Shown: piece by piece, positions 2,464 to 62,962 of the stretch
Layout: each line of letters begins with the position of its first letter
Position numbering within the stretch: the stretch's first letter is position 1
Program-made: the position numbers and the translations under genes
Source of the DNA: Patescibacteria group bacterium
Lineage (GTDB): Bacteria; Patescibacteriota; Patescibacteriia; CAIXNZ01
Reading direction: 5' to 3'
DNA length: 64,000 nucleotides
Assembly: GCA_028714455.1 (NCBI GenBank)
Contig: JAQTMG010000002.1
Location: 102,047-166,046, forward strand
Notes under the pieces: generated by a model
The model's database searches: none
What the model saw: only the letters and a program-made list of their open reading frames with translations
Told to the model about the DNA's origin: nothing

Positions 2464-3921
2464 ATGGAACTTAACCAACTCACAATCAGAGAAGCTCACG
2501 AAAAGCTGCAAAACGGCGAGATTTCCAGTTTAGAATTGGTCAATGCTTGCATTGAGCGCATCAAAAAGACTGACAAAAAGTTGCACTGCTTTTTAGCCAC
2601 TGATTTTGATAACGCGATTAAACAAGCCAAGGAGGTTGATAAGAAAATCAAAAAAGGCGAGAAAATAAAAATGCTGGAAGGTATTCCTTGCGGCATTAAG
2701 GATTTGATTTTAACCAAAGGCATTACCACAACTGCTTCTTCAAAAATGCTGGAACATTATGTGCCCTTGTTTGACGCCACGGTCATTAAGCGACTAAAAG
2801 ATAACGGCGCCATTATTTTAGGCAAGCAAAATTGCGATGCCTGGGGTCATGGCGGTTCAACTGAAAATTCAGATTATGGACCAACGCATAACCCCTGGGA
2901 TTTAACTAGGGTACCAGGGGGTTCTTCTGGCGGCAGCGCAGCTGCTACTGTTTCTGACCAGGTTATTTATTCATTGGGTACAGATACTGGTGGTTCAATC
3001 CGCTGTCCGGGAGCGCATTGTGGCGTGGTTGGCTTTAAGCCCACTTATGGCCGAGTACCGCGTTTTGGCGCCGTGGCCATGGGTTCTTCTTTGGACACAA
3101 TCGGACCGCTCGCCAAATGCGTTGATGATGCAGCCATTGTTTTAAACGCCATTGCCGGCCTGGACGCTAATGATGGCACAACCCTACCTAAACCAGTGCC
3201 TGACTACACTAAAATGAAAGATAAAGGCGTGAAAGGCCTGACCATTGGTTTACCCAAAGAGGCGTTTGGCAAGGGCTTGCAACCAGAAGTTAAAGCGGCA
3301 ATTGACAAAGCAGTTGAAGATTTGAAAAAGCTGGGCGCGAAATTTAAAGAGGTCTCTTTGAAATATATTGATTATGGCTTGGCTTGTTATTACATTATTA
3401 TGCCTTCAGAGGTTTCTTCAAATTTGGGAAGATATGACGGCATTAGATATGGCCATCAATCAAAGGAAGCTGATAATTTGTTTGAAGTTTATACCAAATC
3501 ACGCGCCGAGGGTTTTGGCGCCGAAGCCAAGCGCAGAATCATGATCGGCACTTATGTTTTGTCAGCCGGTTATTATGACGCTTATTATAAAAAAGCCATG
3601 CAAGTGCGCACCCTGATTAAAGAGGATTTTGAAAAAGTTTTGAGCGAAGTTGATTTGATTTTAATGCCCACCTCGCCTCGGCCTGCTTTTAAACTCGGCG
3701 AAAATACCAGTGATCCACTGACAATGTATCTGGAAGATATTTATACCGTGACTATAAACATGGCTGGCGTACCAGCTGCTTCAATTCCATGCGGTTTTGT
3801 GAATAATCTGCCAGTTGGTATGCAGCTGATTGCAAAACAATTAGGCGAAGAAAAGATTTTTCAGGCGGCTTATGCTTATGAAGCGGTTAATGGCTGGAAC
3901 AAGGTTAAACCAAAACTTTAA
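2464..3921 (+). CDS. gatA: Glu-tRNA(Gln) amidotransferase subunit A
   Basis: 485 aa with the amidase signature GGSSGGSAAA and a full-length GatA-like sequence. Confidence 0.95.
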   Translation: MELNQLTIREAHEKLQNGEISSLELVNACIERIKKTDKKLHCFLATDFDNAIKQAKEVDKKIKKGEKIKMLEGIPCGIKDLILTKGITTTASSKMLEHYVPLFDATVIKRLKDNGAIILGKQNCDAWGHGGSTENSDYGPTHNPWDLTRVPGGSSGGSAAATVSDQVIYSLGTDTGGSIRCPGAHCGVVGFKPTYGRVPRFGAVAMGSSLDTIGPLAKCVDDAAIVLNAIAGLDANDGTTLPKPVPDYTKMKDKGVKGLTIGLPKEAFGKGLQPEVKAAIDKAVEDLKKLGAKFKEVSLKYIDYGLACYYIIMPSEVSSNLGRYDGIRYGHQSKEADNLFEVYTKSRAEGFGAEAKRRIMIGTYVLSAGYYDAYYKKAMQVRTLIKEDFEKVLSEVDLILMPTSPRPAFKLGENTSDPLTMYLEDIYTVTINMAGVPAASIPCGFVNNLPVGMQLIAKQLGEEKIFQAAYAYEAVNGWNKVKPKL

Positions 3922-8662: not shown

Positions 8663-10195
8663 ATGTTTAAGGAAAATAATTACAAAAAATATCTTTATAT
8701 TCTCTCATTTTTTTGCGGCATGACTATCATGGCCGTGGAAATTTCGGCTTCGCGCCTTTTAGCGCCATATTTTGGCACTTCGACTTTTGTCTGGACCAAC
8801 ATCATCGGCGTGATTATGGTGGCTCTGGCCATTGGCTATTTTGTCGGCGGCAAGTTATCCGACAGGCGTCCAGATTTAAACGTTTTGCTCAAAATAATCC
8901 TGGTTTCCTGTATTTTTTTAATGACCATACCCTTTATTACTAGGCCGTTGGTGGAATTTATAACCGGCAGCATCTCAATCTGGCAATCGGCTACGAGTTT
9001 AATCTTTATCGGTTCTCTTCTGACCGTGGTCATCTTGTTTATTTTTCCGATAATCTTACTTGGTATTGTCAGTCCGTTTATAATCAAGCTGCTTTCTCTG
9101 AAAAATGGCAACGTAGGCAATGACGCTGGACTGGTTTTTTCCATCTCAACCGTTGGCAGTATTGCGGGAACTTTTTTGCCAGTGCTGGTTTTTATTCCCT
9201 ATCTCGGCACCAGGAAAACAATTTTAATTTTTTCCTTGTCTTTGCTGGTAATCGCGATTATTGGTTTGTTTCCCAAAAAAATTTCCTTGATTTTTCTTTT
9301 ACTTTTTATTCCTGTCATTGTTTTAAAAATGCCAGCGATCAAATCCGCCAATGCTGTGGCCGAGGGTGAGTCCGTCTATCAATATTATCAGGTGGCTGAC
9401 CAAAATAATTTTAGATATTTAAAAATCAATGAAGGTATGGGCGTTTTTTCCGTGCTTAACAAAAGTTCAGACAGCGTTTTAACTGATTCTTATTTTGATT
9501 ATTATAATATTTTGCCTTACATTGACGGCCAGAGTAAAAAGCAAGATGTCCTTATTTTGGGTTTAGCCGGCGGCACAGTCAGCACCCAGTTGAATCATTT
9601 TTTTGCCAACGACTTTGATCTGCATATTGACGGCGTGGAAATAGACAAAAAGTTAATTGAAACGGCCAAAAAGTATTTTAATTTGGAGAATCCCTCTCTG
9701 ACCATTTACAATTTAGACGGCCGAAATTTTTTAGATTATTACCAAAATAAATATAACGCAGTGGTGATTGATGTTTATTCCAACCAGCTGTATATTTCTT
9801 TCCACCTGACCACCAAAGAATTTTTTGATTTGGTAAAAAATCATCTGAAGCCTCAAGGTATCGTGGCCATGAATGTCAACGCTACAGGTAAAGATTCGGC
9901 GCTTTTAAAAAACATCACCAATACCATGCTTTTGAGTTTTAAAAATGTTTATACGGTCTGGACCAGTAATTACAGCTGGAACTATTTAGTGATCGCCTCT
10001 GATAGCGATTTAGATTTCAAAGATTTGAAAAATATCAAAGTTGATCCGCAGTTAAGATCAATTATTGATAATACCAGACAAAATGTTGAGAGGGTTGAAT
10101 ACGACAACAAATTTGGTTTCCTGACAGACGATAAAGCGCCAATTGAAAATTTGACTGACTGGATGATAATTGATTATGTATATAAGAATATGTGA
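8663..10195 (+). CDS. fused membrane domain / spermidine synthase-like protein
   Basis: N-terminal multi-TM region plus a C-terminal GLAGGT...DGVEID...VIDVYS aminopropyltransferase-like fold. Confidence 0.8.
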   Translation: MFKENNYKKYLYILSFFCGMTIMAVEISASRLLAPYFGTSTFVWTNIIGVIMVALAIGYFVGGKLSDRRPDLNVLLKIILVSCIFLMTIPFITRPLVEFITGSISIWQSATSLIFIGSLLTVVILFIFPIILLGIVSPFIIKLLSLKNGNVGNDAGLVFSISTVGSIAGTFLPVLVFIPYLGTRKTILIFSLSLLVIAIIGLFPKKISLIFLLLFIPVIVLKMPAIKSANAVAEGESVYQYYQVADQNNFRYLKINEGMGVFSVLNKSSDSVLTDSYFDYYNILPYIDGQSKKQDVLILGLAGGTVSTQLNHFFANDFDLHIDGVEIDKKLIETAKKYFNLENPSLTIYNLDGRNFLDYYQNKYNAVVIDVYSNQLYISFHLTTKEFFDLVKNHLKPQGIVAMNVNATGKDSALLKNITNTMLLSFKNVYTVWTSNYSWNYLVIASDSDLDFKDLKNIKVDPQLRSIIDNTRQNVERVEYDNKFGFLTDDKAPIENLTDWMIIDYVYKNM

Positions 10196-10309
10196 GGAGT
10201 TGAGAGTAAGGAGTGGAGGGCTTAGTGGAGAGTAATTGGATGTTGGTCATTAATTACCCTCAACCAATTACCTAACGCTCAACTCTCCACTCTCCACTAT
10301 TTACCAAAT
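10196..10309 (+). repeat. strand-asymmetric intergenic repeat, copy R2
   Basis: A C-poor arm runs to 10247 and a G-poor arm spans 10248-10309. It contains TTAGTGGAGAGTAATTGG, the reverse complement of an 18-mer in R4. Confidence 0.7.
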
Positions 10310-10365
10310 GGAAGGTTTGCATGGCGGTCTAGTGCGCACGCCTGCCCCGTACCAATATTTATCAA

Positions 10366-10538
10366 GGAAGGATGGCCGAGAGGCTGAAGGCATCCAGCAC
10401 CAACGCGGAGGGATCGCATAGTGGTCTAGTGCGCTTGCTTGGAGAGCAAGTGTGTCGCAAGGCACCGCGAGTTCAAATCTCGCTCCCTCCGCCATGGTGC
10501 TGGATTAATAGCGGGGGATATTAATCTCATTCCTTCCG
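10366..10538 (+). pseudogene. tRNA-Ser-like shell lacking an anticodon loop and a proper T arm
   Basis: The 5' half is GGAAGGA-TG-GCC-GAGAGGCTGAA-GGC-A-TCCAG. The 3' strand TCCTTCC-G pairs with the acceptor. The anticodon stem is extended to a 10-bp helix capped by the inner tRNA. Confidence 0.5.
10407..10494 (+). tRNA. tRNA-Ser(GGA), complete, innermost unit
   Basis: GGAGGGA/TCCCTCC acceptor, loop TTGGAGA, long variable arm, GCGAG-TTCAAAT-CTCGC T arm, G73 and CCA. Confidence 0.85.
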
Positions 10539-10630
10539 CACATTTTTAAAATATTGGTACGGGGCTTGGAAAGCGTGTTGGGCGCAAGCCCTCGTGGGTT
10601 CAAATCCCACACCTTCCGCCATTAATTTAC

Positions 10631-10658
10631 TTGACAAATATTATTTTTGTGCTATAAT
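10631..10658 (+). promoter_or_regulatory. promoter upstream of typA
   Basis: TTGACA, 16 nt, then TGC-TATAAT. Confidence 0.6.
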
Positions 10659-10681
10659 TATTAAAGAATTTATCCTAAATT

Positions 10682-10705
10682 CTGCTGAACGTCAGCGGAT
10701 TTTTT
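10682..10705 (+). terminator. terminator-like hairpin inside the typA leader
   Basis: 7-bp stem CTGCTGA/TCAGCGG followed by ATTTTTT. It lies between the promoter and the ATG at 10760. Confidence 0.45.
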
Positions 10706-10759
10706 ATTTATGTTCCGCTAAGTTCTATATTCTCTATTCTGTATTCTAAATTCTAAGCT

Positions 10760-12562
10760 ATGAGCATAAGAAACGTCGCCATTATCGCACACGTTGACCA
10801 CGGCAAAACCACGCTCGTGGATGCTTTGCTGCGCCAATCAAAAACATATTTAGGCAAGGAAATGAATGAAAAGGATTTGATCATGGACAGCAATGATTTG
10901 GAAAGAGAGCGCGGCATCACCATTTTTTCTAAAAATGCTTCAGTGATCTGGAATGGCATAAAAATAAATATCATTGACACGCCTGGCCACGCCGATTTCG
11001 GCGGGGAAGTGGAGCGCGTTTTAAACATGGCTGACGGCGTGCTGCTTTTGGTTGACGCCAAAGAGGGACCAATGCCGCAGACGCGTTTTGTTTTAAAAAA
11101 AGCTCTAGAAATGGGTCACAGAGTGATTGTAGTTATCAATAAAATTGATAAGCCAGATGCTCGTCCTGATTATGTTCTAGACAAAACCTTTGATTTGTTC
11201 GTGGAACTGGGCGCTGATGATCAGGCTTTAAATTTTCCAGTTATTTATGCCGCGGCCAAACAAGGTAAGGCGGGACTAGAATCAGATTTAAGCAAAATGC
11301 AGGACATCACGCCGATTTTTGACGCCATCATCAATCATATTCCGGCTCCGATTTCTAATACTGAAAAACCGTTACAAATGTTAGTCACGACCGTGACCGC
11401 TGATAATTTCCGCGGCAGAATTGCCATTGGCAGAATTTATAATGGCAAAATTAAAGCCGGACAAGACGTGATGCACATAAATCGTGAAGGCCAAATGACA
11501 AAATTTCGTTTGGTTTCCTTGATGACTTTTGTGGGCTTGGGCCGTATTGATATTCAGGAAGCAGTAGCCGGCGATATCGTGGCTATTTCTGGCATACCCG
11601 AAGTAAATATCGGCGAAACAATTGCTGACGCTGAAAATCCCAACGCCTTGCCGCTTTTAAATATAGAAGAGCCGACAGTGAAAATGACTTTTATGATTAA
11701 TGATTCTCCTTTTGCCGGCAAAGAGGGCGAGTTTTCAACTTCACGCCAAATTCAGGAGCGCTTGCATAGAGAATTGGAAACTGACATGGCTTTGCGCGTG
11801 GAAAATAACGCCGCTGGCACCTGGACCGTTTCAGGACGCGGTGAATTGCACCTGGCGATTTTAATTGAAAGAATGAGACGTGAAGGTTATGAATTTCAAG
11901 TTTCCAGACCGCAAGTTATTAATAAAGAAAAAGATGGAAAAACCTTAACTCCATTTGAAAGAGTCTTTATTGAAGTGCCTGAACAATATTATGGTTCATG
12001 CATTCAAAAACTTGGCAGTAGAAAAGGTGAGTTAAAAGAAATGAGAACGCTTGATGGCATTACTTATTTAGAATTTGTAATCCCTACTCGTGGTCTTTTT
12101 GGCTATCGCAGTGAATTTTTAACAGACAGCCGCGGTCTTGGTATAATTAATACATCTTTTTATCAATACGATCTTGACCCCAATAACTGGGGTGAAAAAG
12201 AACAGGGCTCGTTAGTTGCTCATGAAACAGGCACCTCGCATTTGTATGGTTTGGTTAATGTGCAGGGCAGGGGAGTTTTATTCATTGGACCAGGCGTTTC
12301 TGTTTATGAAGGCCAAGTTGTCGGTCTAAATTCTCGACCAGGCGATATTCGTGTTAATGTCTGTAAGGAAAAACAACTCTCAAATATGCGCTCCAAGGGT
12401 GACGGCGGCGCTGAACACTTTAATAAACCAAAGGAAATGGATCTGGAAGATGCTTTGGAATTCATCGGCGACGATGAACTTGTTGAAGTTACGCCAAAAA
12501 ATGTCAGAATCAGAAAGGTTTATCTTGATGAAGTGTCTGCCAAGAGAATGGCCAGAAAATAA
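10760..12562 (+). CDS. typA: translational GTPase TypA/BipA
   Basis: [18 protein letters not shown] and the full-length BipA architecture. Confidence 0.95.
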
Positions 12563-26434: not shown

Positions 26435-26495
26435 TTTTTTATAATATCAAAAAATCGCCAGAAAGGCGATTTTTTTAGATCTTCAATATTATTTT

Positions 26496-26806: not shown

Positions 26807-26881
26807 TGGCTCCGGGGGTGGGATTCGAACCCACGACCAAAGGATTAACAGTCCTCTGCGCTACCACTGCGCTACCCCGGA
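26807..26881 (-). tRNA. tRNA-Asn(GTT)
   Basis: The reverse complement folds as TCCGGGG...CTGTTAA...GTGGG-TTCGAAT-CCCAC-CCCCGGA-G-CCA. Confidence 0.9.
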
Positions 26882-27084
26882 AAATTTTGAATTTACTTCA
26901 CAACCACTACTTGCCCTTGCACCTTTGTGGTGCTGGGCGCTACCCCGGAATGGTATTAATAAAAAAACGAAATAGATTCGTTTTTTTACATTTGGAATAT
27001 AACATGTTTTTGAAAGAACGTCAATTTTGATCTTGATTTAAAATCGCCATATCAGCGATTTTTTGATATAGTTATAATATTCAA

Positions 27085-34646: not shown

Positions 34647-34754
34647 TTGGTTTTTGATGGAGAGTGGGTTAAGTAATCAGTTAAACGTGATTAGTGACCA
34701 ATATCCAATTACTCTCCACTAAATCCTCCACTCTCTACTCTCAACTCTAAACAA
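34639..34754 (+). repeat. strand-asymmetric intergenic repeat, copy R4
   Basis: A C-poor arm runs to 34697, followed by a 57-nt G-free run (34698-34754) containing CCAATTACTCTCCACTAA. Confidence 0.7.
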
Positions 34755-59694: not shown

Positions 59695-60099
59695 TCATTC
59701 CGAGCGTAGCGCGAGGAATCCATAACATCGATTAATATGAAACAATATTGCGTTTACATAATGACTAACAAAAGTGACTCCGTGGATTATACCGGCATAA
59801 CGAATAATTTATTTCGAAGAGTATACGAGCATAAAACCCATTTTAATGAGAAGAGTTTTACTTCAAAATATAATATCAATAAATTAGTTTATTTTGAGGA
59901 ATATAATAATCCCGATCAAGCCATATACAGAGAAAAGCAAATAAAGGGCTTGAGTAGAGAAAAAAAATTTAATTTAATAAAAACTATCAATCCTGATTTT
60001 AATGATTTGGCCAGAGATTGGTATAAAGATAGCCAGGCCGAGCGCAAAGAACAACCGACTCAACCTAAATCATAGATTCCACGCTGCGCTCTGAATGAC
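59694..60099 (+). mobile_element. GIY-YIG gene nested between inverted hairpin arms
   Basis: The left arm GTCATTCCGAGCGTAGCGCGAGGAATCC (59694-59721) and right arm GATTCCACGCTGCGCTCTGAATGAC (60075-60099) are mutually complementary. They touch the stop codons of the flanking and cargo genes. Confidence 0.65.
59737..60075 (+). CDS. GIY-YIG nuclease family protein
   Basis: CVYIMTN...YTGITNNLFRRVYEH...E..K motifs of the GIY-YIG fold. Confidence 0.85.
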   Translation: MKQYCVYIMTNKSDSVDYTGITNNLFRRVYEHKTHFNEKSFTSKYNINKLVYFEEYNNPDQAIYREKQIKGLSREKKFNLIKTINPDFNDLARDWYKDSQAERKEQPTQPKS

Positions 60100-60125: not shown

Positions 60126-60995
60126 ATGGATTTATCAATAATAATTGTAAATTGGAACGTCAAAGACTTGCTACGAAAATGTCTGCAATCAATCTATAAA
60201 AAAACTCAAGGCCTTGAATTTGAAGTTTTTGTAGTTGATAACGCCTCAAAAGATAATTCAATTCAAATGGTTTTAAAAGAATTTCCTCAAGCAACTTTAA
60301 TCGCTTCAAATGTAAATCTGGGTTTCGCCAGAGCCAATAATCTAGCGCTCGAACAGGCCAGAGGAAAATATATTTTATTCATGAATCCAGATATGGAGCT
60401 GGTTGAAAATTCTTTTCCTAAATTAATTGAACTAATGGATAAGGATCCAAAAATCGCTTTGTCCACTTGCCAATTAATTTATCCTGACAGCTCCAGGCAA
60501 AATAATGTTAAAAATAACCCTGGATTTTGCGACCAATTTTTAATCCTCTTAAAACTCCATCATCTTTTTCAACCACGATGCTTAAAGAGATATTTGGCCA
60601 AGGATTTTGATTATTCCAAAGAACAAGAAGTTCGGCAAATAATGGGCGCTTTTATTTTTGCCAATGGCGAGATAATAAAAAAACTTGGCGGCTGGGATAC
60701 TGAATATTTTCTTTGGTGGGAAGATTTGGATTTATGCAAAAGAGTACAGGATACCGGTTATAAAATTGTTTACACGCCAAGCACAAAAGTTATACATTAT
60801 GAAGCCAAGGCCTTTGAGCAGCAACCTAGTTTGGAAAAACAAAAAAGATTTAATAGGGGAATGAGAATATATTTTAAAAAACATTTTGGTTTATTGGTTT
60901 ATTGGTTTATTGGTTTATTGGGGTTTATAAGCTTGGGTCTAGCCTGGTTGAGTCAGATCTTTAAAATCAAGCCAAAAACGCAATCAAAGTTATAG
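60126..60995 (+). CDS. glycosyltransferase family 2
   Basis: LSIIIVNWN, VDNASKD and a DxD-like region. ATG at 60126. Confidence 0.85.
   Translation: MDLSIIIVNWNVKDLLRKCLQSIYKKTQGLEFEVFVVDNASKDNSIQMVLKEFPQATLIASNVNLGFARANNLALEQARGKYILFMNPDMELVENSFPKLIELMDKDPKIALSTCQLIYPDSSRQNNVKNNPGFCDQFLILLKLHHLFQPRCLKRYLAKDFDYSKEQEVRQIMGAFIFANGEIIKKLGGWDTEYFLWWEDLDLCKRVQDTGYKIVYTPSTKVIHYEAKAFEQQPSLEKQKRFNRGMRIYFKKHFGLLVYWFIGLLGFISLGLAWLSQIFKIKPKTQSKL
60888..60919 (+). repeat. 4 x 8-nt perfect tandem repeat (GGTTTATT) inside the GT2 gene
   Basis: Read directly. A fifth degenerate copy follows after 2 nt. Confidence 0.9.
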
Positions 60996-61501: not shown

Positions 61502-62962
61502 ATGTCAGATATAACAAATCTCTTAAAAAATAATAAAATCCAAATATTTTTGGCTATTTTAATCATTGAAATACTTTCTTTAATTAGTTTTAAAATTACC
61601 TGGCTTTCAGGAATATTTTTTGTCTTAATCTGTCTAGGCGTTTTAATTTTAACCTGGCGCAAATTAGAAAATGGCGTCTTGATTGCCTTGGCTGAATTGA
61701 TAATTGGCTCACAAGGATATTTATTTTATCTGATGTTACCCGGATTTAAGGTCTCAATTCGTCTGGGAATTTTTCTGATTGTATTTTTTGTCTGGTTATT
61801 TAAATATTTCAACTTCAGGAATTTCCTCAATTTATTGAGGAAGGATAGGCTAGTTCAAAATTTCATTTTACTTTTAGTTTTTATTGCTTTTGGCGCAATC
61901 AATGGTTTAATTCACAAAAATGGCGCTAGCAATGTTTTTTTTGATCTAAACGGTTATTTATATTTCGGACTCTTTTTTGTCTTTCTGGATGCTTTCAAGG
62001 ATAAAGAATTACCCAATAAATTTATTAATGTTTTACTTGCCGCTTTAACCTATGTTTCTCTGGAAATATTTTTTACTCTTTATATTTTCTCACATTCAAT
62101 TCCATATTTGCCTGATTTATTTTACCACTGGATTCGCGATACCAGGGTAGGGGAGATTACTTATGCCGGCGCTAATTTTTTCCGCGTTTTTTTCCAGTCG
62201 CAAATCTGGACGCTGGAAAGTATATTTATTATTCTATGCATTCTGTTATTAAATAAAAAGTCCAAGTGGCTATATATTCTCTTAATCTTTCTTCAAACTT
62301 CCATTCTAATCAGTTTTGCCCGCAGTTTCTGGCTTGGCGGCGCCGTGGCTATGGCGTTTTTATTCGGTTATTTAATTTACACTCGAATAAAAGAATGGCA
62401 GAAATTATTAAAAAATATTGGCTTAATGATTAGCGCTGCTATTCTAAGTGTTGTCTTGATTTTCGCGATTGCCAATTTTCCATTACCCAAACCCACGGCT
62501 TATTTTACGGCTGATATGTTAGTTGGCAGATTTACTCTGTTTAGCGATGCCGCTGCTTCTAGCCGCTGGCAAGAGCTGCCAGTGATTTTGGAAAAAATAA
62601 AAACCAGCCCCATTTTTGGCGCTGGCTTTGGTTCCACTATTACTTATAAAACCGAGGATCCGCGAATCAAAAATACCGATAATCCAGAAGGCTGGTATAC
62701 CACCTACACTTTTGAATGGGGTTTTTTAGATACGATTACGGAAATTGGTATTATTGGTTTATTGGTTTATTTAGTTTTTATCGGCCAGATCTTTTATCTG
62801 GGGCTTAAGGGCAGGGGAGAGAATTGGCTAAAAATTGGTTTGTTACTCGGTTTGATTGCTTTAGTAATAACTAATATCTCCAGTCCATATTTGAATCATC
62901 CACTGGGTATTGGCTATTTGCTTCTCTGTGCTGGAATATTTGAATCAAGATTGTCCGATTAA
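61502..62962 (+). CDS. O-antigen ligase/polymerase-like membrane protein
   Basis: About 12 TM helices with a Wzy_C-like loop region. It lies in the glycan cluster. Confidence 0.6.
   Translation: MSDITNLLKNNKIQIFLAILIIEILSLISFKITWLSGIFFVLICLGVLILTWRKLENGVLIALAELIIGSQGYLFYLMLPGFKVSIRLGIFLIVFFVWLFKYFNFRNFLNLLRKDRLVQNFILLLVFIAFGAINGLIHKNGASNVFFDLNGYLYFGLFFVFLDAFKDKELPNKFINVLLAALTYVSLEIFFTLYIFSHSIPYLPDLFYHWIRDTRVGEITYAGANFFRVFFQSQIWTLESIFIILCILLLNKKSKWLYILLIFLQTSILISFARSFWLGGAVAMAFLFGYLIYTRIKEWQKLLKNIGLMISAAILSVVLIFAIANFPLPKPTAYFTADMLVGRFTLFSDAAASSRWQELPVILEKIKTSPIFGAGFGSTITYKTEDPRIKNTDNPEGWYTTYTFEWGFLDTITEIGIIGLLVYLVFIGQIFYLGLKGRGENWLKIGLLLGLIALVITNISSPYLNHPLGIGYLLLCAGIFESRLSD

What the first reader, a model, noticed from the sequence alone, without database searches (positions are those of the whole stretch)
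10344..10565. The tRNA insert is bounded by 17-bp perfect terminal inverted repeats
GCCCCGTACCAATATTT (10344-10360) is the exact reverse complement of AAATATTGGTACGGGGC (10549-10565).

In RNA this forms a 17-bp helix stacked on the outer anticodon stem. It leaves an internal loop with CT on the 5' side and TTGGAAA on the 3' side. The anticodon GGA therefore stays displayed in an internal loop.

In DNA terms the same feature looks like the terminal inverted repeats of a MITE-like element of about 222 nt. I cannot see a clear target-site duplication (CT on the left, TT on the right). The exact insert boundary is ambiguous by 1-3 nt, because three registers all regenerate a GGA loop.
Basis: seen in the sequence. 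Interest (0 to 1): 0.6.

Follow-up and report, generated by a model that had tools for sequence, protein, structure and literature searches.

The report
tRNA gene nested inside tRNA genes
In a Patescibacteria (CPR) chromosome, a 224-bp insert bounded by perfect 17-bp inverted repeats and carrying its own intact serine tRNA gene sits in the anticodon loop of the resident serine tRNA gene, so the resident gene was probably destroyed and replaced in one step; I found no second example and no published description.

Summary
GCCCCGTACCAATATTT (10344-10360) and its exact reverse complement (10549-10565) are the only perfect inverted repeat of 17 nt or more within 1.5 kb in the window.

The two closest relatives (TypA 95% identical, same gene order) carry the same tRNA-Ser(GGA) uninterrupted. 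The window therefore has a 224-nt insertion (CT plus the 222-nt unit) at the 5' edge of the anticodon loop.

The locus has three concentric layers:
- an outer, disrupted tRNA-Ser(GGA);
- a decayed tRNA-Ser shell, whose anticodon arm is extended to an 11-bp helix;
- an intact inner tRNA-Ser(GGA).

The inner tRNA is 92-93% identical to free-standing genes in other Patescibacteria but only 75% identical to the outer one.

The insert is not a group I intron, has no bulge-helix-bulge motif and encodes no protein. No second copy of the repeat or the unit turned up in the window, 185,579 species genomes, IMG/VR, phage or plasmid collections. The source genome itself is not in any of them.

Best reading: a non-autonomous, MITE-like or captured foreign DNA segment inactivated the resident gene and supplies its replacement. 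The MITE family claim is unproven, and nothing supports a working anticodon in an internal loop.

The parts
10310..10341 (+). Outer tRNA-Ser(GGA), 5' part: acceptor 5' strand, D arm and anticodon-stem 5' strand (tRNA positions 1-31)
   Evidence: It is collinear with the uninterrupted tRNA-Ser(GGA) of relatives L001 (2156-2243) and L002. Joined to 10566-10621, it is called tRNA-Ser(GGA) by ARAGORN. It is 89.8% identical to the L001 tRNA, with compensatory changes in the D stem and variable arm but also G in place of the conserved A14.
10342..10343 (+). CT junction dinucleotide, extra relative to the empty site. It may be the mutated left copy of a 2-bp TT target duplication, or the first 2 nt of the insert.
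   Evidence: The empty site in L001/L002 reads CACGC|TTGGAAA; the window reads CACGC-CT-[222 nt]-TTGGAAA. The junction is ambiguous by 2 nt (GC).
10344..10360 (+). Left arm of the perfect 17-bp inverted repeat
   Evidence: (I3). Pair probabilities are 0.75-1.0.
10361..10365 (+). Spacer ATCAA between the left arm and the middle shell
   Evidence: Read from the sequence; unpaired in the predicted fold.
10366..10397 (+). Middle shell, 5' half: acceptor strand GGAAGGA, canonical tRNA-Ser D arm and anticodon-stem 5' strand TCCAG
   Evidence: The first 26 nt are identical to the 5' end of a tRNA-Ser(TGA) in a phage tRNA cluster (L040 2756-2839). The acceptor pairs with 10531-10537 (p = 0.83).
10398..10406 (+). 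CACCA (5' strand of the helix extension, pairs with 10495-10499) plus the 4-nt leader ACGC in front of the inner tRNA
   Evidence: Inverted repeat I2: the core 11 bp, ATCCAGCACCA (10392-10402) / TGGTGCTGGAT (10495-10505), is perfect. Predicted fold.
10407..10494 (+). Inner, intact tRNA-Ser(GGA) gene with encoded CCA; the presumed functional copy
   Evidence: ARAGORN. Rfam tRNA model 57.4 bits against a gathering score of 29. It is 92-93% identical to free-standing tRNA-Ser(GGA) genes in L161, L162 and L163, 75% to the outer tRNA and 72% to the L001 tRNA. Acceptor-stem probability is 1.0.
10495..10499 (+). TGGTG, 3' strand of the helix extension, directly after the inner CCA
   Evidence: (I2).
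10500..10540 (+). Middle shell, 3' half: anticodon-stem 3' strand CTGGA, a 7-nt remnant in place of the long variable arm, a degenerate T arm (GGGGG-ATATTAAT-CTCAT), acceptor strand TCCTTCC, discriminator G, then CA
   Evidence: Direct-repeat family D3: three tRNA 3' ends, 82% alike. The alignment to the phage tRNA-Ser shows loss of the variable arm and T loop. ARAGORN does not call it a tRNA even with a restored anticodon loop.
10541..10548 (+). Spacer CATTTTTA between the middle shell and the right arm
   Evidence: Read from the sequence.
10549..10565 (+). Right arm of the perfect 17-bp inverted repeat
   Evidence: (I3).
10566..10621 (+). Outer tRNA-Ser(GGA), 3' part: anticodon loop TTGGAAA, anticodon-stem 3' strand, long variable arm, T arm, acceptor 3' strand and GCCA
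   Evidence: It is collinear with the L001/L002 tRNA. The only differences are a compensatory pair in the variable arm. Direct repeat D1 with the inner tRNA is 75% identical.

Best explanation
What it is:
A 224-bp segment of foreign DNA was inserted at the 5' edge of the anticodon loop of the resident, vertically inherited tRNA-Ser(GGA) gene of a Patescibacteria chromosome. The segment ends in perfect 17-bp inverted repeats. It carries a complete tRNA-Ser(GGA) gene of a different patescibacterial lineage, already wrapped in the decayed remains of an older tRNA-Ser gene.

Shown:
- The relatives have an empty site.
- The locus has three concentric layers.
- The inner tRNA is intact and of a different lineage from the outer one.
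- There is no ribozyme core and no ORF.

Inferred:
- The outer gene is now a dead shell, because a helix plus about 190 nt in the anticodon loop cannot decode.
- The locus is still transcribed from upstream. No promoter is predicted inside the insert.
- RNase P cuts at G1 of the inner tRNA, 3' trimming stops at its encoded CCA, and this cargo tRNA now reads UCU/UCC.
- So one event both destroyed and replaced the resident gene.
- The two-shell layering suggests this has happened at least twice in the history of the cassette.

Less certain:
- The 17-bp repeats are the ends of a non-autonomous, MITE-like element moved in trans by a transposase or recombinase, with a 2-bp target duplication (TT, now CT/TT).
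- In the transcript the same repeats form a 17-bp helix. In silico it keeps the near-identical acceptor strands of the layers in register, and it would be a natural RNase III substrate.
For: Insertion and layering:
- The inverted repeat is real and beyond chance.
- L001 and L002 (TypA 95% identical; same order of spermine-synthase-like gene, tRNA-Ser GGA, typA, tRNA-Ser CGA) have an uninterrupted tRNA, and the alignment gives a clean 224-nt gap.
- The outer halves rejoin into a valid tRNA-Ser(GGA). They differ from the L001 tRNA mostly by compensatory pairs, so the gene was a working one until recently. G at the conserved A14 position fits relaxed constraint since then.

Inner tRNA:
- It scores 57.4 bits on the Rfam tRNA model.
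- It is 92-93% identical to free-standing genes in three other contigs but 75% to the outer tRNA.

Middle layer:
- Its 5' half equals a canonical tRNA-Ser 5' half over 26/26 nt, but it has lost the variable arm and T loop.

Fold and function:
- The nested fold has z = -7.9.
- Scrambling the 17-bp arms leaves the inner tRNA folded (p = 1.0). It collapses the middle acceptor stem (0.83 to 0-0.14) and the outer anticodon stem (0.8 to 0-0.2).
- There is no group I core and no promoter-like site inside the insert.
- UCU and UCC codons are used, at 9.7 and 7.7 per 1000.
Against: - Only one instance exists in all the data searched, so neither mobility nor a family is demonstrated.
- The target duplication is imperfect (CT against TT). 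It is indistinguishable from no duplication at all.
- No transposase or integrase lies in the 64-kb window.
- There are no expression or processing data.
- Whether another tRNA-Ser(GGA) or a UGA isoacceptor exists elsewhere in the genome is unknown.
- The middle layer's 5' half is pristine while its 3' half is degraded, which simple neutral decay does not explain.
Confidence: 0.55

Rival explanations
1. One-off capture of foreign DNA rather than transposition. A break at the hairpin-prone anticodon stem-loop was repaired by joining in a 224-bp fragment taken up from another Patescibacterium, using 0-2 nt of microhomology (the GC ambiguity). The 17-bp repeats already flanked the donor's tRNA locus. 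They defined the fragment ends because the single strand folded back and was trimmed to the base of the stem.
For: - The unit is single-copy everywhere it was searched.
- No transposase lies nearby.
- The junction has a 2-nt GC ambiguity and no clean duplication.
- The inner tRNA belongs to another lineage.
- As single-stranded DNA the unit folds very stably (-62.6 kcal/mol, z = -10.2).
Against: - Perfect 17/17 ends that coincide exactly with the insert boundaries are what a recombinase or transposase substrate looks like.
- The added length fits 222 + 2.
- A tRNA-Ser landing inside a tRNA-Ser, apparently twice, is improbable for random capture unless selection for replacement filters the outcomes.
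Confidence: 0.22
2. The shells are functional RNA, not debris. The composite transcript would be a designed processing scaffold. The outer and middle tRNA-like shells recruit RNase P and 3' processing enzymes and protect or time the release of the inner tRNA. Alternatively, the outer shell, held together by the 17-bp helix and still carrying the SerRS identity elements (long variable arm, G73), acts as a chargeable but non-decoding tRNA-like molecule, or as a decoy for anticodon nucleases.
For: - All three acceptor stems and the 17-bp and 11-bp helices are perfect, and the nested fold is highly stable.
- The 17-bp helix is needed in silico to keep the shells in register.
- The middle 5' half shows no decay.
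- The outer variable arm and T arm are intact.
Against: - The closest relatives manage with a plain tRNA.
- The middle T loop and variable arm are degraded, and the middle ends in GCA rather than GCCA.
- The outer tRNA has lost the conserved A14.
- No conservation across genomes can be shown.
- The inner tRNA folds equally well without the arms.
Confidence: 0.1
3. It is a true intron or intervening sequence. The 224 nt would be removed from the transcript and the outer tRNA re-ligated, for example by tRNA-processing enzymes plus an RNA ligase or by an archaeal-type endonuclease, so that both outer and inner tRNAs mature.
For: - Patescibacteria are rich in tRNA introns (PMC13011429).
- The insert lies in the anticodon loop, and its removal regenerates a valid tRNA.
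Against: - There is no group I or any other ribozyme match.
- There is no bulge-helix-bulge geometry. A continuous 17-bp helix is flanked by a 2-nt / 7-nt internal loop.
- Cuts by RNase P, RNase Z or RNase III would not fall at the exon boundaries (inference from their known specificities).
- The positions 31/32 or 33/34 are not known bacterial intron sites (PMC13011429).
Confidence: 0.04
4. It is an assembly or amplification artefact that joins reads from two strains with different tRNA-Ser(GGA) alleles.
For: - The source is probably a metagenome-assembled genome.
- The outer and inner tRNAs share 75% identity, including exact runs that could confuse an assembler.
Against: - A mis-join would not create a perfect 17-bp inverted repeat exactly at both junctions, a third tRNA-like layer with its own 11-bp repeat, or a fully nested complementary architecture.
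- The flanking synteny is intact.
Confidence: 0.04

Closest known systems
Bacterial MITEs and other non-autonomous elements with terminal inverted repeats (for example Neisseria Correia elements, or Rickettsia palindromic elements that land inside RNA and protein genes) - from my own knowledge
   Same: It is short (222 bp), has perfect terminal inverted repeats and no ORF, and shows insertion polymorphism with an empty site in close relatives. The added length is compatible with a 2-bp target duplication. The same genome carries another small palindromic repeat in two copies (10195-10300 and about 34655-34750).
   Different: It is single-copy in everything searched. The duplication is imperfect (CT/TT). 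No matching transposase was found. The cargo is a complete, apparently functional tRNA gene inside a tRNA pseudogene, and the target is the cognate tRNA gene.
Group I introns in anticodon loops of Patescibacteria tRNA genes (Nakagawa et al. 2026, PMC13011429)
   Same: Same phylum, same class of host gene and the same region of the gene. The host tRNA is invisible to standard tRNA finders until the insert is removed.
   Different: It has no group I catalytic core (Rfam E-value scan). The position is 31/32 or 33/34, not 35/36 or the other known sites. The content is tRNA-like, and no splicing route is apparent.
Elements that target tRNA genes: eukaryotic Dada DNA transposons (PMC3706591), integrative elements that carry a copy of the tRNA 3' part to repair their target (own knowledge), and the archaeal model of tRNA gene disruption by mobile elements (PMC3293823)
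   Same: A tRNA gene is the landing site. The damage to an essential gene is neutralised, by multicopy targets in Dada and by a carried tRNA segment in integrative elements.
   Different: Here a whole independent tRNA gene is carried, not a duplicated 3' part. The element is 222 bp with no recombinase. The result is concentric nesting rather than attL/attR direct repeats. Ordinary att-type 3' tRNA-Ser fragments seen in L053, L084, L127 and L131 look quite different.
Intervening sequences (IVS) of bacterial 23S/16S rRNA, excised by RNase III without re-ligation - from my own knowledge
   Same: An extended, perfectly paired stem replaces or enlarges a hairpin loop of a structural RNA. The complementary ends look like terminal inverted repeats. 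RNase III cleavage is expected.
   Different: Fragmented rRNA still works, but a tRNA cut in its anticodon loop does not. Here function is rescued by the cargo, not by tolerance of fragmentation.
Engineered 'tRNA scaffold' for recombinant RNA expression (Ponchon and Dardel 2007) - from my own knowledge
   Same: An RNA is grafted, through a helix, in place of the anticodon loop of a tRNA whose acceptor, D and T arms are kept. This is exactly the geometry of both shells here.
   Different: This one is natural, the grafted RNA is itself a tRNA, and there are two levels.
Archaeal bulge-helix-bulge introns and split or permuted tRNA genes (PMC3218864, PMC4390854)
   Same: A disrupted tRNA gene whose halves are held together by a helix formed from the intervening or leader sequences.
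   Different: There is no BHB motif, the organism is bacterial, no splicing endonuclease is known in it, and the halves are probably never rejoined.

Membership tests
MITE / non-autonomous TIR transposon | Terminal inverted repeats exactly at the element boundaries | tested here: met
   The repeat is 17/17 perfect, at 10344-10360 and 10549-10565. The boundaries coincide, within 2 nt, with the insertion mapped against L001/L002.
MITE / non-autonomous TIR transposon | Target-site duplication flanking the element | tested here: inconclusive
   The flanks are CT and TT, and the empty site has TT. The length 224 = 222 + 2 fits a 2-bp duplication with one later substitution, but equally fits no duplication plus a 2-nt GC junction ambiguity.
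MITE / non-autonomous TIR transposon | Multiple copies in the genome or in related genomes | tested here: not met
   There is no other copy in the 64-kb window at up to 3 mismatches. GTDB species genomes gave 27 single hits, none paired and all in unrelated taxa, within what chance allows. IMG/VR gave 4 single hits. Phage and plasmid records gave no match. Caveat: the rest of the source genome is not available.
MITE / non-autonomous TIR transposon | A related autonomous element or transposase with the same ends | tested here: not met
   A Pfam scan of about 66 window ORFs found no transposase, integrase or reverse transcriptase. The remainder of the genome could not be tested.
MITE / non-autonomous TIR transposon | Empty site in close relatives (insertion polymorphism) | tested here: met
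   L001 and L002 have the uninterrupted tRNA at the syntenic position.
Group I intron in a tRNA anticodon loop | Conserved catalytic core detectable by the Rfam group I model | tested here: not met
   An E-value-mode cmscan of 10250-10700 returned only the inner tRNA above threshold and no intron family up to E = 10. The gathering-mode scan of the whole window gave only three tRNAs.
Group I intron in a tRNA anticodon loop | Insertion at a known anticodon-loop position, with U before the 5' splice site and G as the last intron base | tested here: not met
   The insert lies at 31/32 (or 33/34 in the alternative register). In the 31/32 register the upstream exon ends in C and the insert ends in C. 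In the 33/34 register the insert ends in T.
Archaeal/eukaryal bulge-helix-bulge tRNA intron | Two 3-nt bulges separated by a 4-bp helix at the exon-intron boundaries | tested here: not met
   The boundaries are a 2-nt / 7-nt internal loop followed by a continuous 17-bp helix.
Archaeal/eukaryal bulge-helix-bulge tRNA intron | A splicing endonuclease and an RtcB-type ligase encoded in the genome | not testable with these tools
   Only 64 kb of the genome is available. None of the ORFs scanned matched such families.
Functional bacterial tRNA-Ser (applies to the inner gene) | Cloverleaf scoring above the curated tRNA threshold, long variable arm, G73 and a GGA anticodon in a 7-nt loop | tested here: met
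   ARAGORN calls tRNA-Ser(GGA). Rfam gives 57.4 bits against a gathering score of 29. It is 92-93% identical to free-standing genes in L161-L163.
Functional bacterial tRNA-Ser (applies to the outer gene) | A contiguous 7-nt anticodon loop | tested here: not met
   224 nt are inserted at the 5' edge of the loop. The gene is called as a tRNA only after the insert is removed in silico.
tRNA-targeting integrative element (integrase type) | An integrase gene and direct repeats consisting of the tRNA 3' part (attL/attR) | tested here: not met
   There is no integrase. The insert carries a whole, diverged tRNA in nested rather than direct-repeat arrangement.
rRNA-type intervening sequence excised by RNase III | A long perfect stem formed by the ends of the insert, replacing or extending a hairpin loop | tested here: met
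   The 17-bp helix has pair probabilities of 0.75-1.0.
rRNA-type intervening sequence excised by RNase III | RNase III cleavage in vivo, with the host RNA functional when fragmented | not testable with these tools
   This needs RNA mapping. By inference, a tRNA cut in its anticodon loop would not decode.

The most novel reading that the evidence does not exclude
The cassette is one member of an undescribed class of selfish 'replacement' minigenes. These would be ORF-less units bounded by inverted repeats, each carrying a tRNA gene. They would home into the anticodon loop of the cognate resident tRNA gene, kill it and make the host dependent on the cargo copy. Each takeover would leave a concentric pseudogene shell, so the nesting depth (here two shells) records successive takeovers, possibly across lineages. 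This would be a new route for horizontal replacement of tRNA genes. It would also be a plausible starting point for tRNA introns and split tRNAs.
Probability: 0.15. Interest if true: 0.88.

Novelty: new variant of a known kind. Interest (0 to 1): 0.62.

Why it matters
If real, and especially if recurrent, it shows three things.

- An essential single-copy tRNA gene can be replaced in one step by a foreign version delivered into its own anticodon loop. That would be a concrete mechanism for xenologous tRNA replacement in very small genomes.
- tRNA genes can accumulate concentric pseudogene shells that standard annotation never reports. ARAGORN and Rfam see only the inner gene.
- Nature has arrived at the 'tRNA scaffold' geometry used in RNA engineering.

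It also gives a testable bacterial model for how insertions into anticodon loops might start the evolution of tRNA introns or split tRNAs. If it is a one-off accident, it is a curiosity of one genome.

Tried and rejected
1. Group I intron or any other Rfam family: rejected. Only the inner tRNA matched.

2. Second copies of the 17-mer:
- none in the window at up to 3 mismatches;
- in genome contigs, 27 single hits, none paired and all in unrelated taxa, within what chance allows; one in a Saccharibacteria contig lies in coding-like sequence with no partner arm;
- four single hits in viral contigs.

3. The whole 222-nt unit by blastn: no match against phage or plasmid records.

4. Metagenome scan with a degenerate pattern covering the 3' ends of the outer, middle and inner tRNAs. 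The pattern was too generic. About 123 tRNA-Ser 3' ends were inspected. None was nested, and the few without a tRNA call were att-type 3' fragments or lay at contig ends.

5. Syntenic loci through TypA homologues. Only the 95% relatives keep the tRNA upstream of typA. The 84-87% relatives have other neighbours.

6. Spurious-ORF trick, searching translations across the tRNA nest against protein databases. It found inner-type free-standing tRNAs (L161-L163) but no nested copy.

7. The C-terminus of the upstream protein as a probe for closer relatives on short contigs gave only a 42% hit.

8. Viral scans for the inner tRNA core and for the 11-bp repeat pair found nothing.

9. The idea that the 17-bp helix is needed to insulate the inner tRNA fold was rejected. 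The inner acceptor probability is 1.0 with scrambled arms, and only the shells depend on the helix.

10. ARAGORN in intron mode does not call the outer gene in place.

11. The 16-nt, 88% complementarity between the insert's left end (10354-10369) and the typA promoter region (10627-10642) (I5) was judged a possible AT-rich coincidence and not pursued.

12. Literature searches for nested or embedded tRNA genes found no description of this arrangement.
Full report
**The observation**

Across the whole window this is the only perfect inverted repeat of 17 nt or more with arms within 1.5 kb. A count of such repeats gives 1 observed, against a mean of 0.05 in 40 first-order Markov simulations of the window. 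The 17-mer has no further match in the window even with 3 mismatches.

**What surrounds it: three layers**

ARAGORN and Rfam see one tRNA here, tRNA-Ser(GGA) at 10407-10494 (57.4 bits against a gathering score of 29). The repeat analysis shows more.

- Outer layer. 10310-10344 and 10564-10622 are 77% and 75% identical to the 5' and 3' parts of that tRNA (D1 and D2). The halves of a second tRNA-Ser(GGA) therefore lie outside the 17-bp arms.
- Middle layer. A third tRNA 3' end (AATCTCATTCCTTCCGC, 10523-10539) lies between the inner tRNA and the right arm (D3). A second inverted repeat brackets the inner tRNA; its core 11 bp, ATCCAGCACCA (10392-10402) and TGGTGCTGGAT (10495-10505), is perfect (I2).
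  - Its 5' half (10366-10397) starts GGAAGGATGGCCGAGAGGCTGAAGGC. This is identical over 26 nt to the 5' end of a normal tRNA-Ser(TGA) in a phage tRNA cluster (L040).
  - Its 3' half (10500-10540) has lost the long variable arm and the T-loop consensus and ends GCA. ARAGORN will not call it even when I restore an anticodon loop.
- Inner layer: the intact tRNA-Ser(GGA).

The order is therefore: outer tRNA-Ser(GGA) 5' part, CT, 17-bp arm, spacer, decayed tRNA-Ser shell 5' half, 5-bp helix extension, 4-nt leader, intact tRNA-Ser(GGA), helix extension, shell 3' half, spacer, 17-bp arm, outer 3' part (coordinates checked).

As RNA, 10305-10625 folds into concentric cloverleaves (-149.7 kcal/mol, z = -7.9). 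Pair probabilities are 0.75-1.0 for the 17-bp helix, 0.83 for the middle acceptor, about 0.92 for the outer acceptor and 1.0 for the inner acceptor.

**It is an insertion**

TypA, encoded 140 nt downstream, places the organism in Patescibacteria (CPR, Parcubacteria-like). The exact protein is not in the public collection.

The closest relatives are two JGI metagenome contigs with TypA 95% identical. They keep the order spermine-synthase-like gene, tRNA-Ser(GGA), typA, and L001 also retains the downstream tRNA-Ser(CGA). Both carry an uninterrupted tRNA-Ser(GGA). The alignment leaves one clean 224-nt gap. The relatives read ...GCGCACGC|TTGGAAAGCGTG..., and the window reads ...GCGCACGC-CT-[222 nt]-TTGGAAAGCGTG....

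The insert therefore lies between tRNA positions 31 and 32, with a 2-nt (GC) ambiguity. If the ancestral loop was CTGGAAA, it lies between 33 and 34. Removing it in any of these registers yields a sequence that ARAGORN calls tRNA-Ser(GGA).

The rejoined outer tRNA is 89.8% identical to the relatives' tRNA. The differences in the D stem (GCC/GGC to GCA/TGC) and in the variable arm (GAGC/GCTC to GGGC/GCCC) are compensatory, so it was a working gene for most of its divergence. It also has G at the near-universal A14 position, which fits relaxed constraint since the disruption.

More distant TypA relatives (84-87%) have lost this synteny and say nothing either way.

**Where the cargo comes from**

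The inner tRNA is only 75% identical to the outer one and 72% to the relatives' tRNA. It is 92-93% identical to free-standing tRNA-Ser(GGA) genes on three other contigs (L161, L162, L163). I found these by searching the spurious antisense ORF that gene callers place over this tRNA. None of those is nested. The cargo is thus an ordinary patescibacterial tRNA-Ser(GGA) of a different lineage from the resident gene.

**What it is not**

- An E-value-mode Rfam scan of 10250-10700 finds only the inner tRNA and no group I intron. Group I introns are the known kind of tRNA interruption in this phylum (PMC13011429).
- The boundaries are a 2-nt / 7-nt internal loop next to a continuous 17-bp helix, not a bulge-helix-bulge.
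- The unit has no credible ORF.
- Pfam finds no transposase, integrase or reverse transcriptase among about 66 window ORFs, which are housekeeping genes.
- No promoter-like site lies inside the insert.

**Is it a MITE?**

The form fits. It is 222 bp with perfect ends, relatives show an empty site, and the added length is 222 + 2. That length could be a 2-bp TT duplication with the left copy now CT. It could equally be no duplication at all.

The defining multicopy property is not met in anything I could search.

- 185,579 species genomes gave 27 single hits, none paired and all in unrelated taxa, within what chance allows. One in a Saccharibacteria contig is plain coding-like sequence.
- IMG/VR gave four single hits.
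- Phage and plasmid blastn gave nothing.

Among about 123 tRNA-Ser 3' ends, none was nested. The few uncalled ones were ordinary att-site fragments or lay at contig ends. Protein-space searches over the nest found no other nested copy. The source genome is not in any collection, so copies elsewhere in it cannot be excluded.

The genome does hold a different small palindromic repeat in two copies. One sits immediately upstream of the outer tRNA. Small mobile or repeated palindromes are therefore not foreign to it.

**How it most likely works**

Shown:
- an insertion relative to close relatives;
- a disrupted outer gene;
- an intact cargo gene of foreign type;
- two concentric tRNA-Ser shells;
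- perfect helices.

Inferred from established tRNA biology:
- An anticodon loop carrying a 17-bp helix and about 190 further nucleotides cannot enter the decoding centre, so the outer gene is dead.
- The locus is read through from upstream.
- RNase P cleaves at G10407. The encoded CCA defines the 3' end, and the cargo tRNA reads UCU/UCC, which the window's genes use at 9.7 and 7.7 per 1000 codons.
- The insertion could persist because it brought its own replacement.

In silico, the 17-bp helix is not needed for the inner tRNA to fold. Without it the middle acceptor stem (0.83 to 0-0.14) and the outer anticodon stem (0.8 to 0-0.2) collapse, because the outer and middle acceptor strands are nearly identical. 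As RNA the helix therefore organises the shells and would be an RNase III substrate. As DNA the arms are the ends of the inserted segment.

Whether a transposase or recombinase acting in trans moved it, or it was captured once during repair, cannot be decided from one copy. I favour the first slightly. The perfect repeats coincide with the boundaries, and a tRNA-Ser inside a tRNA-Ser appears to have happened twice.

The minimum-energy fold even pairs the left CU with G34 and G35.

**Comparison with the literature**

Searches of the held literature found the following:
- group I introns in Patescibacteria tRNAs (PMC13011429);
- tRNA-targeting Dada transposons in eukaryotes (PMC3706591);
- a model of archaeal tRNA disruption by mobile elements (PMC3293823);
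- reviews of disrupted tRNA genes (PMC4390854).

None describes a tRNA gene nested in the anticodon loop of another tRNA gene. The geometry matches the engineered tRNA scaffold and resembles rRNA intervening sequences (my own knowledge).

**Verdict**

The MITE reading is partly supported: an insertion with perfect ends, yes; a family, unproven. The decoding-loop reading is not supported.

The larger finding is the three-layer tRNA nest and the replace-by-insertion logic. I rate it a new variant of a known kind (a non-autonomous insertion in a structural RNA gene), with interest 0.62. It is surprising to a tRNA specialist and directly testable, but so far it is a single instance.

Noticed in passing
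window 10195-10300 (+) and about 34655-34750 (-): A palindromic repeat of about 100 nt lies immediately upstream of the outer tRNA and has a second copy 24 kb away. The copies are about 85% identical over about 95 nt, and a 28-nt core is identical apart from one position allowed as R (G/A) in the search pattern. It folds as a long imperfect hairpin (-40.9 kcal/mol, z = -4.2). It looks like a REP/MITE-type intergenic element and is unrelated in sequence to the 17-bp arms.
   Followed up: partly
L001 1541-2149 and L002 1760-2368, compared with window 10196-10309: The closest relatives have a 202-aa SMI1_KNR4 gene between the spermine-synthase-like gene and the tRNA. The window has the palindromic repeat there instead, so this small region has been remodelled more than once.
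   Followed up: partly
window 10631-10710: A perfect sigma-70 promoter (TTGACA, 16 nt, TATAAT, with an extended TG) is followed by an 8-bp hairpin and a T run (10681-10699), all about 50-130 nt before the typA start at 10760. The arrangement is conserved in L001. It may be a leader or attenuator, or a small RNA.
   Followed up: no
window 10354-10369 and 10627-10642: The left end of the insert (AATATTTATCAAGGAA) is 88% complementary to the -35 region of the typA promoter just downstream of the outer tRNA (TTACTTGACAAATATT). This may be an AT-rich coincidence or a trace of the donor context (I5).
   Followed up: no
window 26444-26473 and 27040-27069, around tRNA-Asn(GTT) at 26807-26881 (-): 30-nt inverted-repeat arms (83% complementary), each itself a terminator-like hairpin, bracket the tRNA-Asn gene at a distance of about 160-330 nt (I1).
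   Followed up: no
window 59737-60075 (+): A stand-alone 112-aa GIY-YIG nuclease-domain protein lies inside a glycosyltransferase / O-antigen cluster. It was the only nuclease-domain hit that looked potentially related to mobility among the ORFs scanned.
   Followed up: no
L040 2216-2919 (IMGVR_UViG_3300007775_000001): A phage contig carries a cluster of six tRNA genes (Cys, Lys x2, Met, Ser, Arg). The first 26 nt of its tRNA-Ser(TGA) are identical to the middle shell of the window.
   Followed up: partly
L117 (metagenome contig AUXO017688702.1), minus strand, about 140-290 nt into the 592-nt extract made: Two adjacent tRNA genes both have a CTA anticodon (amber-suppressor-like; ARAGORN labels them Pyl). 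The second has a tRNA-Ser-type T arm and acceptor end.
   Followed up: no
L053 about 13243, L084 about 9692, L127 about 4352, L131 about 3271: High-GC metagenome contigs carry isolated 3' fragments of tRNA-Ser. In three of them (L084, L127, L131) the fragment begins at the anticodon stem; in L053 only the T arm and acceptor end are recognisable. This is the usual footprint of integrated elements (att-site duplicates) and is a useful contrast to the nested arrangement.
   Followed up: partly
L163 about 3240-3340: Upstream of the free-standing inner-type tRNA-Ser(GGA) there are two direct copies of a roughly 30-nt motif (ATAAGTAAGGAGTTATTAAATAAAA), and an 850-nt stretch with no called genes.
   Followed up: no
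window 60864-60934 and 62724-62778: Short tandem runs of the 8-nt unit GGTTTATT occur in two places within the polysaccharide-synthesis cluster (D1).
   Followed up: no
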